Position numbers and translations under genes: made by a program. From NCBI RefSeq assembly GCF_036971445.1, contig NC_091473.1, forward strand, positions 206,956,001-207,018,565: a stretch of DNA of 62,565 bases, in the 5' to 3' direction. Numbering within the stretch: position 1 is the first letter of the stretch; each line of letters opens with the position of its first letter. Under the pieces are notes generated by a model. It was given only the letters and a program-made list of their open reading frames with translations, was not told where the DNA came from and made no database searches. Shown here piece after piece: positions 15,810 to 49,011 of the stretch. This DNA is from Narcine bancroftii (taxonomy: Eukaryota).

Positions 15810-17345
15810 GTTTAACATCTCTCGGATTAAGCTATCACGGCAGAATTTACCAGCAGCAAATTAATCGATCAAACCTTTGGCACTTTGGAGGAACCCTGAT
15901 CACCCAATGCAACATGCAAAGTAGCGGAGGAAACAGAAAATTGGATATAATAAAAGCACTGGAGGTTAGGTTCTGACCAGAGATGGTGCTTCTATGAAGC
16001 AGAAGTTCCATTTGCTGAATCATTCTTCCAAACAAGAAAATTTAGTTTCAAGAAATGTGATCGTTGGAACACCGGAGTGTTGCACCACCGATATAAACCA
16101 CTTGGCCATTCGTATACATGCTGGGTTTGTGTAAGCACAGGACAGCCAATCCTCCTGTTACATCCATTGTACCTAAGGCAAATGAATGATGATAATTTCA
16201 GTTCTCAAGCGAGTATCTCCTGAATCTGTGCTTTAAGAATCTCTGTAGGAGTAAGGATGAAACACCTTCAGATCTGAATATAATAAATACAAATAGGACA
16301 TGCTCTTGCCAGTTTAGACCGTATTTGTAGGTAAAGAAACAGAGTTAATGTTCCAGTTTGAATACCTGTCGTAAAAAAATTGGAAGGAGAGAAAGGCGGC
16401 TTATTGAGATACAGATATGATTGGGAATAATTGTCGCCAAATGGGAAAACCCGTGGTGATCAGGGTAGTAATCGGTAAATAAGTTTATCTGGTCAGTTTG
16501 TGGATTGGGGTGCGAGGTGGAGAATGACTGCATGAATGAAATGTGGATAAAATAATGCCAGACTTCTGAATAGCAGAGGAAGATGGCATGTCTCTCAAAA
16601 CAGACCAACAGGTTGGTTCTACCTGATAAAATAAGGAAAGCCAAATCAAAAAACTCCATCAATGAGAGAAAATTGTTGACAAAGGATGAAGTAATCTTGG
16701 AATGACGGCAACATATTTTCGTTCAACAGCGATTAATGTGATTCTGAATTTTGTTATTTTGAATATTGGAGAGTAGTAGATATGGTAGGCGATTAGCAGA
16801 AGTCTTTAATAAAGTCATTCGTTGTCTAGTTATTGCTGGTTAAAGCTATGTATTTTCTCTGATGCACTCGGTACGCTGAGAGGGATTATTGTTGAGCATC
16901 TGCTTCCTTCGGCTGGATAATGTAGAAAAATTGTTTCTTCATTAATACATTGGGTCAGAAATTCAGGTGTGAAATCAGAAGTGAATAACGTTCTGGGAGA
17001 TTTACTAATTTGGGAACTTCTACACTGCGAATTGATTGCAGATATTGATGCTGTATATATTTAAGGCTGGAATATATTGACATTTGGACACGCAAAAGGT
17101 TGAATAATTGTGTATATTGGGGAACGAAATGAGCTATAACATTGCATACGGCTTCATGAATACTAGGGCAAATTTGAGATATTGTACAACTTGCATTTTT
17201 TCGTTTTATCGAATCGGAAAGTCGACTTTATTCAGTGCCCTCAGGTGGCTTTTGGGTCCGTCATTTATTTATGAAGGCGTTCGGTATCGTTCATGTGAAC
17301 TTGGTTCTGACGTCTTCACTGTCTTAAATACATTGCTCTTATTGT

Positions 17346-17351
17346 CATGTG
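17346..17351. promoter_or_regulatory. USF-type E-box (GTCATGTGAC) upstream of D1
   Basis: Near-palindromic E-box ending 25 bp before the D1 5' nonamer; a CRE-like TGACGTC lies near 17308. Confidence 0.5.
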
Positions 17352-17376
17352 ACTCCGTGGTAAGATGTAATTGAAA

Positions 17377-17453
17377 CCTTTTTGTATTGACATGTTTCAC
17401 TGTGGGGATGGGGTCACGGTGATTGAAACGCCACCAGCTGCCGTACAATATCT
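17377..17453 (+). other. TRDD: TCR delta D segment 1 (coding 17405-17414, GGGATGGGGT) with 12-RSS and 23-RSS
   Basis: CCTTTTTGT - 12 nt - CACTGTG | GGGATGGGGT | CACGGTG - 23 nt - ACAATATCT. Open in all three frames (GMG, GWG, DG). Confidence 0.93.
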
Positions 17454-18846
17454 TCCCAGCTGCAATACCTTGTTACCCACACGACTTGGATTAAAACGTC
17501 ATTTACATGCCTTGGGTTCTTTTTATCTTCTACTTGATCTGTACTTTTCGAAGATAGCCTGAATATTTATGATTTTTTTAATACTATAAATTCACAGGAT
17601 AGTAGTTTAATTGCGGTTCAGAATGTTGTGAAAAATGTGACTCGATTAACCAGGTTCAGAGCAGAGATAATAATGGATTTTAATGTCTTGAAATGCAACA
17701 TTTAGAAAGGAAGTGGTCATAAAACTAAACAGTAAATCTTCAACACGAACTCTTAAGTATACTTAGGTTTTATTTAATTGTATTTTTGATGGAATTTTGT
17801 GAAACAAATCTATGCCGATGATTAATGGGAACTTTCAATAAAGTAAAGCATAATCTGCAGGAGAAAACTAGCACGTCGCATAGCATGTATGAGTAAAAAT
17901 GAGATGTCTACGTTTCAAGTCCAAATCATTCCTAAAGACTGACTGTGAAGAGAGGAGACATTCAATCTCAGGAGAAATTCAGGAATTGCGATTGTGGACA
18001 GGTCGTGTGTTTGGGCAATCATGTTAATAATCTGTTTTAATCTTTTTTTCTCATTTCATGGGGTTCAGAAAATATTATGAAAGTACGCAGTTGTACAGCC
18101 TCTTGCATGAATCCGTGTGTCTATTGTCGACCGATATATCACAAACAAGTGGAAATAACAATGTAGTGTGATTGTGCAGTTCATGGATCATTCATGTGCC
18201 ATGAGTTTTTCAAGCTCCATCCTCGTCAATGTAACTTTCAATATCTATATAAGTCCTTCCTTTGTCCTTTCTTTGTTCTATACGTTCTGGTTTACACTGT
18301 AAAAAAAAATCTTTGGGTAATGCAAACCAACTGCGTGTTCATCATTAACAAAAAGTATCACTATCTTGAGGATTTCTGCCTCAGTAAAGGAAATGCACGT
18401 GTGTCTACAGTTATCAATTCGTTATCACTAGCGTTGAAGGTTTATTGGTATATTTAAATAATGTGTTCAAGGAGACTGTTCGGGGTCATTGAGATTACAT
18501 CGGATTCTAGATCATTTCCGACAATCCACCATTTATTTTGTCTGCAATATTTTCTCTGCCAGTATCGTGCTCGTTATCCTGCTGGATTTTCCGGGTGGAT
18601 GCAACTTAGTGTGGTCAATCAGTCTATCAATTGGCCAACCCTTGGGGCTCTATATCTGACACAGATCAACTGGCGTGATCGCTGCCTTAAGAGTGCATAA
18701 AGCATTGATTGTGCTTGAGTCTCGAGGCAGCCGGAGCCCTATCCTTTCTCGTGCAGCCTGGCGTCTGATTGTGATCGGTGTGGGTCGTATGAAATGCTGT
18801 GAGTTGTTTCTCTCCGTTGCATGTGCTGTGCAGTAACGTGTAATCT

Positions 18847-18852
18847 CACGTG
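18847..18852. promoter_or_regulatory. USF-type E-box CACGTG upstream of D2
   Basis: Ends 25 bp before the D2 5' nonamer, the same spacing as at D1. Confidence 0.5.
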
Positions 18853-18877
18853 GCTCTGCGGGCAGCAACGAGTTGAG

Positions 18878-18955
18878 AGTTTTTGTATTGCCTTGTAGCA
18901 CTGTGTTTGGGATACGCACAGTAGTTGAAGAACCATCAGCAGCAATACATTAACC
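18878..18955 (+). other. TRDD: TCR delta D segment 2 (coding 18906-18916, TTTGGGATACG) with 12-RSS and 23-RSS
   Basis: AGTTTTTGT - 12 nt - CACTGTG | TTTGGGATACG | CACAGTA - 23 nt - ACATTAACC. The GGGATACG core is shared with human TRDD3 and mouse Trdd2. Open in all frames (FGI, LGY, WDT). Confidence 0.96.
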
Positions 18956-19157
18956 TTTCAGCTTCAGAACCTTGTCGACTAGTCAGTAGCTTTGTTAATC
19001 CTCCCTATTATTAACAATTGGAGATTTGCCATTGCATTTAGTATTTATTCTGCTTTAATTAATACGTCGCTGGATATTCAAGGATCCGTCTAAGATCGCC
19101 AGCTGGTTGAAGGAATCTTGGTTCCCTGACTGATGTTACGATGGGAAAGAAAACGCT

Positions 19158-19272
19158 GGTTTCCATGAGATTCGGAGAGAATGTGGAAAAAATCATTTTA
19201 TATGTTTTAACGTGTGGGGCGTTCAATTCATATTTGTGAACGGAATCATGCCGTATGTTTATCCCAGTGAGT
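19158..19272 (+). other. TRDJ: Atypical TCR delta J-like segment (coding 19186-19266, KNHFICFNVWGVQFIFVNGIMPYVYP); ORF or pseudogene
   Basis: Candidate 12-RSS GGTTTCCAT - 12 nt - GAATGTG (19158-19185). Open frame ending VYP + A, then a phase-1 donor GTGAGT at 19267. FGxG is altered to FVNG. Confidence 0.65.
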
Positions 19273-20439
19273 ACCTCGTCCTTAACCTGCTTTTCTACTG
19301 TTTATTTTTAATTTACTATTTGAAAAACCTACGAAGCTGAATGGTCGCCAATGTCGTTTGTATTCAAATCGGCGTCTCTGAGAAACAAATGAAACCTGGG
19401 ACTTGTTATTGGTGGGCAGCCGAGTAGGACTATCCTATTTCCTGTTTCTCCAGCTTCTCAAGTCAAAGTGCTTCATGGAATGAAATTGAATATTGACGGC
19501 ACCAGATCTAATTCAAACTCATGCGTTCACTTGCAATATTTAATTGAACGGTAAGTCAAACCATGCTGTGCAATATAAAACAAAATTATGGGAGCAAAGC
19601 GTATGTGGTCATTTTCGCTTTGCTTAATCCCTTTTCGGGTGGTATAATTCATTCATAGGTTTGATGTTTGCTTTCTCCGCGATTTGGGTACGTTTGAAAA
19701 ATATAAATTAGAGCTGACATAGTTCATGTGCCCTGTCCGCAGTGAAACTAATACACAAAAATAAATTCGGAATGTTGTTTTGCCAGATAAAGACCAGTAT
19801 GATATGTTGATGGTTGACTAATAATTGTTCCTATCCATTGAATCACAAAAAAAAATAGAATGTAAGAGAACATAAAACAAATCAGTTATATGAAGCAGAT
19901 GTGATTAAGAATTCGATTTTACAACCCTGCGTATTTTTTAAGTTTGATTTCTTGTTTGGTGAGTTCCTGAGTTTAAAAAATGGTTGAGGGTTAATTTTGA
20001 TACGGAGACCAGTTTACAACGACGATAAAAACATAATATTAGCAACTATAGCGATCTTACCTCGGATCCAGATTTATAAGGTTGGTCAAGACTATTTCTG
20101 ATTCCTTTTGCGTGCAGGATTTATGTCAGACTGTGGTATGCCATTGTGGAAAAGGGTAACTGCAAAAGTCGTCCATTTAGGTTTTAGTTGTCCCTCTGAT
20201 TCTTATTTAAGTGAGGATGACGTGTTTAAGAGAGAAGTATCTATCTTAAGGATTTACTAACTGCTATTGAGGTTTAATACATGTAAGGATTTGGCACTTG
20301 GTGGATGATACTGCTTCTAACTTAGCCTGGAGTTTTCAGGGTTCTTGTGTGGAATAGATGTACTTTGACATACATTTTGTGGCTCGGGTTTAAGTTAGGG
20401 AGACAGGAGATATTTGTAATAAGCACAGGATTTTGATAG

Positions 20440-36750: not shown

Positions 36751-37762
36751 TTGTGTAATTATATCAGAACCACTACCTGTTATAGTTCTAAGAAGTTCTG
36801 GAGAAGGCATAAATTCACAAATTCAAATAAAAGCTAATTGATTTAATCAAAATGGAGAAGGCGTGGCTGACCATATTCAAACAAACAGAGACAGTGCAAG
36901 ATCAAACTAGATTCAAATCAGGGACACTGATGCAAATATGAAACACAGAATCGAGACGTAGAGTTCAAAAGTATAGACACAGGACTGTCTCAGCAACTTT
37001 ACAATGCTAAGTTATCTATCTCAGCGCGTCCTATTTATCTGAATTTTCCTCGTAACACTCCAAAGATTGCCCGTCATGTACCTATCTTTTAAAGGCATGG
37101 TAACGCCATGAGCGACACAGGTTGACGCAGATAGCTTGGAACAGACCATGTGGCTCAAGGTGGCATTCTGGGCTCGTCTCATTTGTTTGCATCAGGTCTG
37201 TATTATTTTAAACCCTTCCATTCCATTCCTGTGTATTTTGACCGTCGATATTCACCGGCTGTTTGAGCTTCCTTTGGCAGTTTGTTGAAGATACTCGATG
37301 AATGAAAAGGTTGTTCCTCAGTTCCTTCCCAAACATTTCACTTCTCAACTTATATCTATGCTGTCCTGTTCTGTAATCATCTACTATGAGAGATAGACTG
37401 TGAGCATTAATTCTATCAATGTCCCTTGCCCTGGAAATTGTCGGAACATTTGCCCTGTCCCACCTCACATTATCTACCATGCCTCCTCCCGAATATTCAT
37501 TGCATTCCTTTGATATAGTGGAGTAGAGAAAACAGTCGATTACCTTTCTGAAGGAACGCGGGTTATGTGGGACCATGGAAAATGACTGTTAGAGGGATGT
37601 TCGTTTTGCGTTCATAACAAGTTCACTCAAAATTTAATTTAGACATAGACATACAGCATGGTTCCAGGGTAATAGTGTTGAGTCAAATGCTACACTAACC
37701 ATGTCATGCATGTCAACGACTTTCTAAGCAAACACTGACAGATCTCTTAATGTGGTAAGTGC

Positions 37763-37846
37763 TGTATTTGCTGCACCTGATACCACCGTGTTATGAAAAG
37801 CTTATTTTTGGAAGCGGCACTAAACTCATCGTGGAGCCAAGTAAGT
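37763..37846 (+). CDS. TRDJ: Functional-looking TCR delta J segment (coding 37791-37840, YEKLIFGSGTKLIVEP)
   Basis: 12-RSS TGTATTTGC - 12 nt - CACCGTG (37763-37790), FGxG motif, phase-1 donor GTAAGT at 37841 in frame with C exon 1. Resembles human TRDJ1 (DKLIFGKGTRVTVEP). Confidence 0.96.
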
Positions 37847-38361: not shown

Positions 38362-38456
38362 GATTTATGTCTGGGATGTTGTTAGAGTAAGATATTTCAG
38401 AACTGAGAGACTGACATTCGGCAGCGGGACCCAGTTGAGAGTTGTGCCAAGTAAGC
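38362..38456 (+). CDS. TRDJ: TCR delta J segment with intact frame (38390-38450, RYFRTERLTFGSGTQLRVVP) and non-canonical heptamer
   Basis: Nonamer GATTTATGT - 12 nt - TAGAGTA, FGSG motif, phase-1 donor GTAAGC at 38451. Confidence 0.88.
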
Positions 38457-48693: not shown

Positions 48694-49011
48694 AGCCTAA
48701 AGCAAAGAATATACATCCACAACCATTAGTCTTATACCCGCCCCTCAGTCAGGGTGTGAGTACCACAAAGTCCAAAACTGCCGCGGTGTGTCTGCTGTCT
48801 GATTTTTATCCCAAAAAGATTGAGCTCTTCATGGCTATAAACGAAACAGTCAACGTCACGACTCCAAGTCGTCTGAATGATAACGGATTTTACGTAAGTT
48901 CCGGTTACCTTCAGTTCCCAGATGATCAAGACCTGGAAAACATCACGTGTACCGTAAAACATGAGAACCAAGAAAAAAATAATACTATCCAGGTGGATAA
49001 ACGTGTACCAG
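48694..49011 (+). CDS. TRDC: TCR delta constant region exon 1 (Ig C1 domain)
   Basis: Acceptor TTTAG at 48693, phase 1. (K)PKAKN...AAVCLLSDFYPKKI...ITCTVKHE...KRVP, with both Ig cysteines and the FYPK motif. Donor GTGAGC at 49012. Confidence 0.95.

What the first reader, a model, noticed from the sequence alone, without database searches (positions are those of the whole stretch)
17344..18886. Both D segments have a USF-type E-box exactly 25 bp upstream of the 5' RSS nonamer
CATGTG (17346-17351) precedes the nonamer at 17377 and CACGTG (18847-18852) precedes the nonamer at 18878. The offset is identical although the intervening bases differ. USF1 is known to regulate the mouse D-delta2 promoter. 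Inference: a position-fixed E-box/RSS module that couples germline transcription or RAG access to each D, possibly conserved across jawed vertebrates.
Basis: partly seen in the sequence, partly recalled or inferred. Interest (0 to 1): 0.7.

Follow-up and report, generated by a model that had tools for sequence, protein, structure and literature searches.

The report
Inherited E-box beside TCR-delta D segments
A short transcription-factor-like motif sits the same 25 bases before the cutting signal of both D gene pieces of a T-cell-receptor delta locus, in what is likely a cartilaginous fish, because the pieces are likely old copies of one another; it is likely a conserved switch that helps open these pieces for rearrangement, but its binding factor and any need for exact spacing are untested.

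Summary
Observation confirmed. CATGTG (17346-17351) and CACGTG (18847-18852) each end 25 bp before the 5' 12-RSS nonamer of D1 and D2 of a TCR-delta D-J-C region. The equal offset is not independent: the cassettes are paralogs, and the hexamer sits in a 16-bp block that is 12/16 identical. A 69%-identical duplicate of the D1-D2 unit lies 38 kb upstream. Its intact-looking D1' has CAAGTG at the same place, and its decayed D2' has CAGGTG. All four cassettes keep TCANGTGRCTCYG: CANNTG in 4 of 4, the USF-type core in 2 of 4. The block is modestly more conserved than its flanks (29/32 versus 74.7%, p=0.023; 11/16 four-way invariant versus 7-9 in 9 nulls). It is absent from 3 of 3 TCR-beta and 4 of 4 IgH D segments examined. 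Published primers suggest human D-delta2 lacks it at this offset. No other species' locus could be aligned. Verdict: likely a locus-specific bHLH element inherited from an ancestral D-delta cassette, of a known kind (mouse D-delta2 and D-beta2 USF promoters). A spacing-critical, jawed-vertebrate-wide USF module is not supported. Three look-ups found no earlier scan note on this.

The parts
17345..17360 (+). Conserved 16-bp block upstream of D1 (consensus TCANGTGRCTCYG..), holding the E-box CATGTG at 17346-17351 and a Runx-like CGTGGT starting 21 bp before the nonamer
   Evidence: the Runx motif is recalled and was scanned after the fact
17377..17404 (-). D1 5' 12-RSS (nonamer 17377-17385, heptamer 17398-17404)
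17405..17414 (+). D-delta1 coding segment, 10 bp
17415..17453 (+). D1 3' 23-RSS
18396..18401 (+). Further CACGTG 482 bp before the D2 nonamer; a CACGTG is also present at the matching place (2-nt shift) in the upstream duplicate
18846..18861 (+). Conserved 16-bp block upstream of D2, holding the E-box CACGTG at 18847-18852
18878..18905 (-). D2 5' 12-RSS (nonamer 18878-18886, heptamer 18899-18905)
18906..18916 (+). D-delta2 coding segment, 11 bp
18917..18955 (+). D2 3' 23-RSS
16935..19017 (+). D1-D2 unit, duplicated at 69% identity outside the window (G000:C11:206935106-206937135)
37791..37840 (+). J-delta1 (FGSG motif), 12-RSS at 37763-37790, spliced to C in RNA-run contigs
38400..38451 (+). 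J-delta2 (FGSG motif; ends approximate)
48694..49008 (+). C-delta Ig C1 exon
52356..52503 (+). C-delta transmembrane exon with the Arg/Lys pair of alpha/delta chains (motif recalled; ends approximate)

Best explanation
The E-box lies in a 16-bp block that the TCR-delta D cassettes share at the same place, likely inherited from one ancestral D cassette, and it is likely kept by selection as a binding site for a bHLH-Zip factor (USF/TFE class the best candidate) that would help open and transcribe the unrearranged D so that RAG can reach its 5' RSS. Shown: the motif, its offset, the paralogy of the cassettes, the upstream duplicate, and the absence of the block at the TCR-beta and IgH D segments examined. 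Inferred: selection on the block (modest statistics), factor binding, and the role in accessibility (by analogy with the mouse D-delta2 and D-beta2 promoters). The equal 25-bp offset is read as inheritance; nothing here shows that the distance matters.
For: D1 versus D2: 12/16 identity in the block, against 5/16 in the 16 bases between block and nonamer (Fisher p=0.032, boundary chosen after the fact). Only 9 of 6343 unrelated 60-bp windows reach 12/16. No D1/D2 homology further upstream by profile HMM, and forced four-way alignments equal their nulls, so the block is an island. Independent test in the recent duplicate: block 29/32 against 74.7% background, p=0.023. Four-way invariant 11/16, against at most 7 upstream and 7-9 in 9 of 9 null alignments. 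CANNTG is kept at this place in 4 of 4 cassettes and in a heptamer-less inverted fragment, while only 2 of the 14 other CANNTG in the unit survive in register (3 of 14 with a 2-nt shift). The only spacing change (+2 bp) is in the decayed D2'. USF prefers a 5' GT flank (PMC8431614 passage); D1 and D1' have GT on both sides. An RNA-run contig bridges 18461 to beyond 19200 over the unrearranged D2, in a run that also holds spliced C-exon joints. Precedent: USF1 at the mouse D-delta2 promoter (title in reference lists only) and at the 5' D-beta2 promoter (PMC12258588 passages). Published mouse and human primers match the D1-type and D2-type spacer ends and the D2 3' end (by eye), which hints that the D1/D2 split is as old as jawed vertebrates.
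Against: The central base of the E-box takes all four letters across the four cassettes. The USF-type core is lost in D1', whose RSSs look better than D1's (heptamer plus nonamer mismatches: 1 and 1, against 2 and 4), while the non-functional inverted fragment keeps CATGTG. In the duplicate alignment the 18/19 window over the D1 block ties with three anonymous windows, and the pairs are not significant alone (p=0.06 and 0.19). The decayed D2' keeps the block at 14/16, so selection on a working D is not needed to explain it. One of four D1-type/D2-type upstream comparisons scored above its null (2 of 300), so faint neutral homology is not fully excluded. The RNA-run contig reaches at least 386 nt 5' of the D2 E-box, so if it is sense RNA the E-box lies inside the transcribed span. 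No binding data and no cross-species alignment.
Confidence: 0.5

Rival explanations
1. Neutral relic. A short (about 130-150 bp) D cassette was duplicated or gene-converted, and the E-box-like hexamer is leftover similarity with no function.
For: Similarity runs in register through both spacers and 20 bp past the 3' nonamer. The decayed D2' and the heptamer-less inverted fragment keep the block. The core base varies freely. An indel-free 25 bp is common (P=0.60 at d=0.31). Three anonymous windows are as conserved as the D1 block.
Against: Identity drops to background (5/16) between block and nonamer while staying in register, and the block is also the better conserved part in the independent recent duplicate (p=0.023).
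Confidence: 0.3
2. First reader's strong form. A spacing-critical USF/RSS module recruits or positions RAG at each D and is conserved across jawed vertebrates.
For: The 25-bp gap holds in D1, D2, D1' and the inverted fragment, and changes only in the decayed D2'. Factors that load RAG at D-segment RSSs are known: RUNX1 at the human D-delta2 23-RSS and c-Fos at D-beta (PMC4144731 passages).
Against: The USF core is absent in D1'. The block is absent in 3 of 3 TCR-beta and 4 of 4 IgH D segments examined and before J1. Two published human D-delta2 primers, if they overlap by 4 nt, put a non-matching base where the E-box would end (inferred). The RUNX1 site overlaps the RSS and is not kept even between human and mouse.
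Confidence: 0.1
3. The conserved unit is not the E-box but its right half and neighbours (GTGRCTCYG plus a Runx-like YGYGG), bound by another factor; the CANNTG is incidental.
For: The invariant columns extend 3' of the hexamer while its third base varies. A strict Runx-like hexamer starts 21 bp before the nonamer in D1 and D1'. Runx1 is named with USF1 in the title of the mouse D-delta2 paper.
Against: The left half TCA is invariant too. D2 has only a mismatched Runx-like site and D2' none at that place. The scan was done after the fact with recalled motifs.
Confidence: 0.1

Closest known systems
Mouse D-delta2 (Trdd2) germline promoter regulated by USF1, Runx1 and c-Myb (Carabana 2005, PMID 15778374; paper not held; title seen in reference lists; Trdd2 germline transcripts in PMC9437428 passages)
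   Same: E-box of USF type close to the 5' RSS of a TCR-delta D; D2 here looks like the counterpart of mouse D-delta2/human D-delta3 (primer matches); RNA-run cover of the unrearranged D2.
   Different: Here the motif stands at the same place before every D-delta cassette, its core base varies, and no binding or promoter activity is shown. The position of the mouse USF site could not be read, so positional identity is untested.
USF site at the mouse 5' D-beta2 promoter (Stone 2012, PMC3288432; not held; seen through PMC12258588 passages)
   Same: USF at a D-segment germline promoter, tied to V(D)J recombination.
   Different: That site represses transcription and, as I recall, lies within the 12-RSS spacer; the TCR-beta D segments of this genome lack the block described here.
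RAG-loading factor sites at D-segment RSSs: RUNX1 at human D-delta2 23-RSS, c-Fos at D-beta 23-RSS (PMC4144731 passages)
   Same: A transcription-factor site at a fixed place relative to a D RSS.
   Different: Those sites are at the 3' 23-RSS (the RUNX1 site spans coding end and heptamer); this one is 25 bp outside the 5' 12-RSS, and no RAG contact is shown.

Membership tests
TCR-delta D segment | Short coding segment with 5' 12-RSS and 3' 23-RSS | tested here: met
TCR-delta D segment | Lies upstream of 12-RSS J segments and an alpha/delta-type C gene, distinct from TCR-beta | tested here: met
   J1, J2, C and a TM exon with Arg and Lys (motif recalled); splice joints; a separate beta-like locus on contig C5 with its own Ds (labels from recalled motifs); IgH clusters nearby, as described in PMC12227049. 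The PDB search gave only generic Ig C1 hits.
USF-type (class B) E-box | CAC/TGTG core | tested here: met
   Met at D1 and D2; not met at the duplicates D1' (CAAGTG) and D2' (CAGGTG)
USF-type (class B) E-box | USF-favoured flanks (5' GT) | tested here: inconclusive
   GT on both sides at D1 and D1'; only the T on one side at D2 and D2' (preference from PMC8431614 passage). TFE/MITF share such sites (recalled).
USF-type (class B) E-box | Bound by USF in vitro or in vivo | not testable with these tools
   needs EMSA or ChIP
D-associated germline promoter | Unrearranged D region is transcribed | tested here: inconclusive
   One contig of a run with spliced joints bridges the unrearranged D2; one study, strand and start not shown
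D-associated germline promoter | Transcription starts at or near the element and depends on it | not testable with these tools
   contigs cannot show starts; the contig extends at least 386 nt 5' of the E-box
Position-fixed module of all D segments | Present at the same offset in D segments of other loci | tested here: not met
   0 of 3 TCR-beta and 0 of 4 IgH D segments examined have CANNTG at -31..-26
Position-fixed module of all D segments | Conserved at orthologous D-delta segments of other jawed vertebrates | tested here: inconclusive
   No ortholog could be fetched; primer tiling hints at absence at human D-delta2

The most novel reading that the evidence does not exclude
The block TCANGTGRCTCYG is a D-delta-specific element older than the split of cartilaginous and bony fishes. 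Held 25 bp (about 2.4 helical turns) from the 5' nonamer, it docks a bHLH factor, perhaps with Runx beside it, that sets how each D-delta 12-RSS is opened. Changing the central base (CAT, CAC, CAA, CAG) would switch factor class and so tune the use of each duplicated D.
Probability: 0.15. Interest if true: 0.6.

Novelty: new member of a known kind. Interest (0 to 1): 0.33.

Why it matters
I found no description of cis-control of D segments in cartilaginous fish in nine searches of the held library; key subscription papers are not held. If the block is functional, USF-like control of D-delta accessibility, known from mouse, would reach back to the oldest living lineage with V(D)J recombination. 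The locus also offers a ready natural experiment: four cassettes with four different E-box cores, one of them decayed. If the block is neutral, it is an ordinary trace of D-segment duplication.

Tried and rejected
Cross-species test by sequencing runs: 8 runs listed, no RNA holder on record. The only other organism (run X6) gave 2 short pieces at 99%+ identity that miss both D segments. None of the 4 runs laid covered D1 (17100-18093 had no cover); a hole in contigs proves nothing and is not used. The contig ends at 18461 (X5) and 18906 (X7, the first base of D2) come from one study and are not taken as a start site or as proof of rearrangement. Metagenome scan for host-derived D cassettes: 23 of 23 loci lacked a 3' nonamer or D-like context and were rejected as chance. 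Genome pattern searches: 2 hits, both D1/D2, 14 of 16 hits chance or repeats, 5 of 7 hits repeats or chance, 4 of 4 repeats or chance, 1 of 3 not a D (not inspected further), 2 of 6 outside the locus (not inspected further), 0 hits, 5 hits judged unrelated from the matched letters. These strict patterns missed D1' and the TCR-beta Ds, which were found by fetching flanks, so other D segments may remain unseen. Homolog search with the C exon among longer proteins: none of 51 candidates scored. Long upstream homology between D1-type and D2-type flanks: one of four pairwise scores stood out, but HMM and forced-alignment tests did not support it, so it was rejected. Myb, GATA, CRE, Ets and STAT scans showed nothing shared by all four cassettes. 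Papers not held: Carabana 2005, Stone 2012, Deiss 2019. PMC2192893 and PMC2187731 returned no passages. The one supplement file of PMC6756028 held no TRDD entries. PMC13520107 gave only a reference. Figures and supplements that I could not see may give the mouse USF site position. Three look-ups of earlier scan notes gave nothing on this element.

Full report
What the region is. The window holds the D-J-C part of a T-cell receptor delta locus. There are two D segments with 5' 12-RSS and 3' 23-RSS (D1 17405-17414, D2 18906-18916), two FGSG J segments, a C1 exon and a transmembrane exon with the Arg/Lys pair that I recall as typical of alpha/delta chains. Contigs of three runs show the J1-to-C and C-exon splice joints. 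The genome is 3.3 Gb and the window lies on contig C11. IgH V-D-J-C clusters lie within about 1 Mb on the same contig, as described for elasmobranchs (PMC12227049, passages). A separate beta-like locus lies on C5. A cartilaginous fish is therefore inferred.

Observation. Both hexamers and both 25-bp gaps are exact. With 36 class-B E-boxes in the window, an independent match at the same offset has probability 5.8e-4. But the cassettes are paralogs. In register, 11 of the 25 intervening bases match (8 of the first 13), as do 8 of 12 and 15 of 23 spacer bases and 14 of 20 bases after the 3' nonamer. The shared offset is one inherited event, not two.

A natural experiment outside the window. Fetching 200 kb upstream revealed a third D with near-consensus RSSs. 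It belongs to a 2.1-kb duplicate of the whole D1-D2 unit at G000:C11:206935106-206937135, 69% identical by BLAST, 74.7% over ungapped columns, with 42 indel events. D1' has CAAGTG at the same -31..-26 place with a 25-bp gap. D2' has CAGGTG, a 2-bp insertion at the nonamer, a 5' heptamer that has lost the invariant first base, and a deletion in the 3' RSS, so it is likely a pseudo-D. An inverted, heptamer-less fragment of the D1-type flank keeps CATGTG at 25 bp. All four cassettes share TCANGTGRCTCYG. A genome-wide pattern for it gave these four and two hits elsewhere, against two control hits. CANNTG is kept in 4 of 4 cassettes, the USF-type core in 2 of 4, and the loss includes the intact-looking D1'.

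Is the block under constraint? For: D1 versus D2 is 12/16 in the block, reached by 9 of 6343 unrelated windows, and falls to 5/16 between block and nonamer (p=0.032, boundary chosen after the fact). Upstream of the block, profile HMMs find no D1/D2 homology and forced alignments equal nulls. The block's 11/16 four-way invariant columns exceed the 7-9 seen in 9 of 9 nulls. In the independent recent duplicate the block is 29/32 against 74.7% (p=0.023), and only 2 of the 14 other CANNTG in the unit survive in register. Against: neither duplicate pair is significant alone (p=0.06, 0.19); three anonymous windows match the D1 block's 18/19; non-functional copies keep it too; one of four upstream comparisons scored above null (2 of 300). 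Spacing tells little: an indel-free 25 bp has P=0.60 at the duplicate's divergence and 0.09-0.38 at assumed larger distances. The evidence for selection is real but modest, and evidence for a spacing requirement is weak.

Is it general? No. The three TCR-beta D segments found on C5 and the four IgH D segments examined (three of them near-identical copies) lack CANNTG at -31..-26 and differ from the block at 6-10 of 13 positions. J1 lacks it. No ortholog from another species could be obtained. Primers printed in PMC4144731 (passages), compared by eye, give two hints. First, the spacer end plus heptamer of D1 matches mouse D-delta1 (12 of 12), that of D2 matches mouse D-delta2 (11 of 12), and the end of D2 matches human D-delta3 (11 of 12), which suggests that the D1/D2 split is very old. 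Second, two human D-delta2 primers, if they overlap by 4 nt, tile 26 almost wholly purine bases before the nonamer and put C where the E-box needs its final G, so the motif is likely absent there at this offset. Axolotl reportedly has no D-delta at all (PMC12529555 passages).

Transcription. A 932-base contig of run X5 bridges 18461 to beyond 19200, across the E-box, both RSSs and D2 in unrearranged form. The run holds spliced joints, with exon depth near 1000 and intron depth about 15-70, so it is likely RNA. This fits germline transcription over D2. It also places the D2 E-box at least 386 nt inside the covered span. Strand and start are not shown, and it is one study.

Mechanism and comparison. 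The most likely reading is a D-delta-specific bHLH site inherited from an ancestral cassette and serving in a D-associated promoter or accessibility element. It would work like the mouse D-delta2 promoter (USF1, Runx1, c-Myb; title only) and the 5' D-beta2 USF site (PMC12258588 passages). The invariant 5' T and the GT flanks at D1 and D1' suit USF (PMC8431614 passage), though TFE/MITF read the same sites (recalled) and the variable core base argues against strict USF dependence. Direct RAG loading, as by RUNX1 or c-Fos, is less likely because the RUNX1 site overlaps the RSS and is not conserved between human and mouse. Confidence: functional inherited bHLH element 0.5, neutral relic 0.3, spacing-critical pan-vertebrate USF module 0.1, another factor on the right half 0.1.

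Verdict. Real observation, partly supported interpretation, a candidate new member of a known kind. Nine searches of the held library found no description of it, but the key papers were not held. Interest 0.33.

Noticed in passing
G000:C11:206935106-206937135 (about 38 kb upstream of D1, loci L057/L056): A 69%-identical duplicate of the D1-D2 unit: D1' with near-consensus RSSs and a different coding sequence (a likely third usable D-delta), and a decayed D2'. No J or C duplicate was found with it.
   Followed up: yes
G000:C11:206934590-206934706, minus strand: Inverted 117-bp fragment of the D1-type upstream flank with E-box and nonamer but no heptamer.
   Followed up: partly
window 18396-18401: A perfect CACGTG 482 bp before the D2 nonamer, also present in the duplicate with a 2-nt shift; it lies 60 bp before the first base of the X5 contig. 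A candidate promoter E-box, but contigs cannot show a start.
   Followed up: partly
window ~37166-37195: A contig of run X5 joins sequence from about 600 bp upstream of J1, ending at a GT donor, to the C exon: a likely sterile germline exon.
   Followed up: partly
window 17454-17473 and 18956-18975: The 20 bp after the 3' nonamers are also similar between D1 and D2 (14 of 20); D1 has CAGCTG there and in its 23-spacer, neither kept in the duplicate.
   Followed up: partly
G000:C11 ~206910310, minus strand; ~206868035, plus strand: An inverted V segment with a 23-RSS about 45 kb upstream of the window, and a V-like end with a 22-bp-spaced RSS further upstream.
   Followed up: no
G000:C5 ~139.92-140.14 Mb (loci L121-L136): Two oppositely oriented TCR-beta-like D-J-C clusters, one with two D segments in tandem; a V-like motif lies about 8 kb before the first D of the second cluster.
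   Followed up: partly
G000:C11 207.5-208.2 Mb and C1 212.7 Mb (loci L106-L118): IgH clusters in which the scan found a single D with 12/12 RSSs between V and J.
   Followed up: no
window 16900-19400: CpG observed/expected is 0.67-0.98 around both D segments against 0.53 for the window, and 0.80-1.02 at the duplicate, which may reflect low germline methylation.
   Followed up: no
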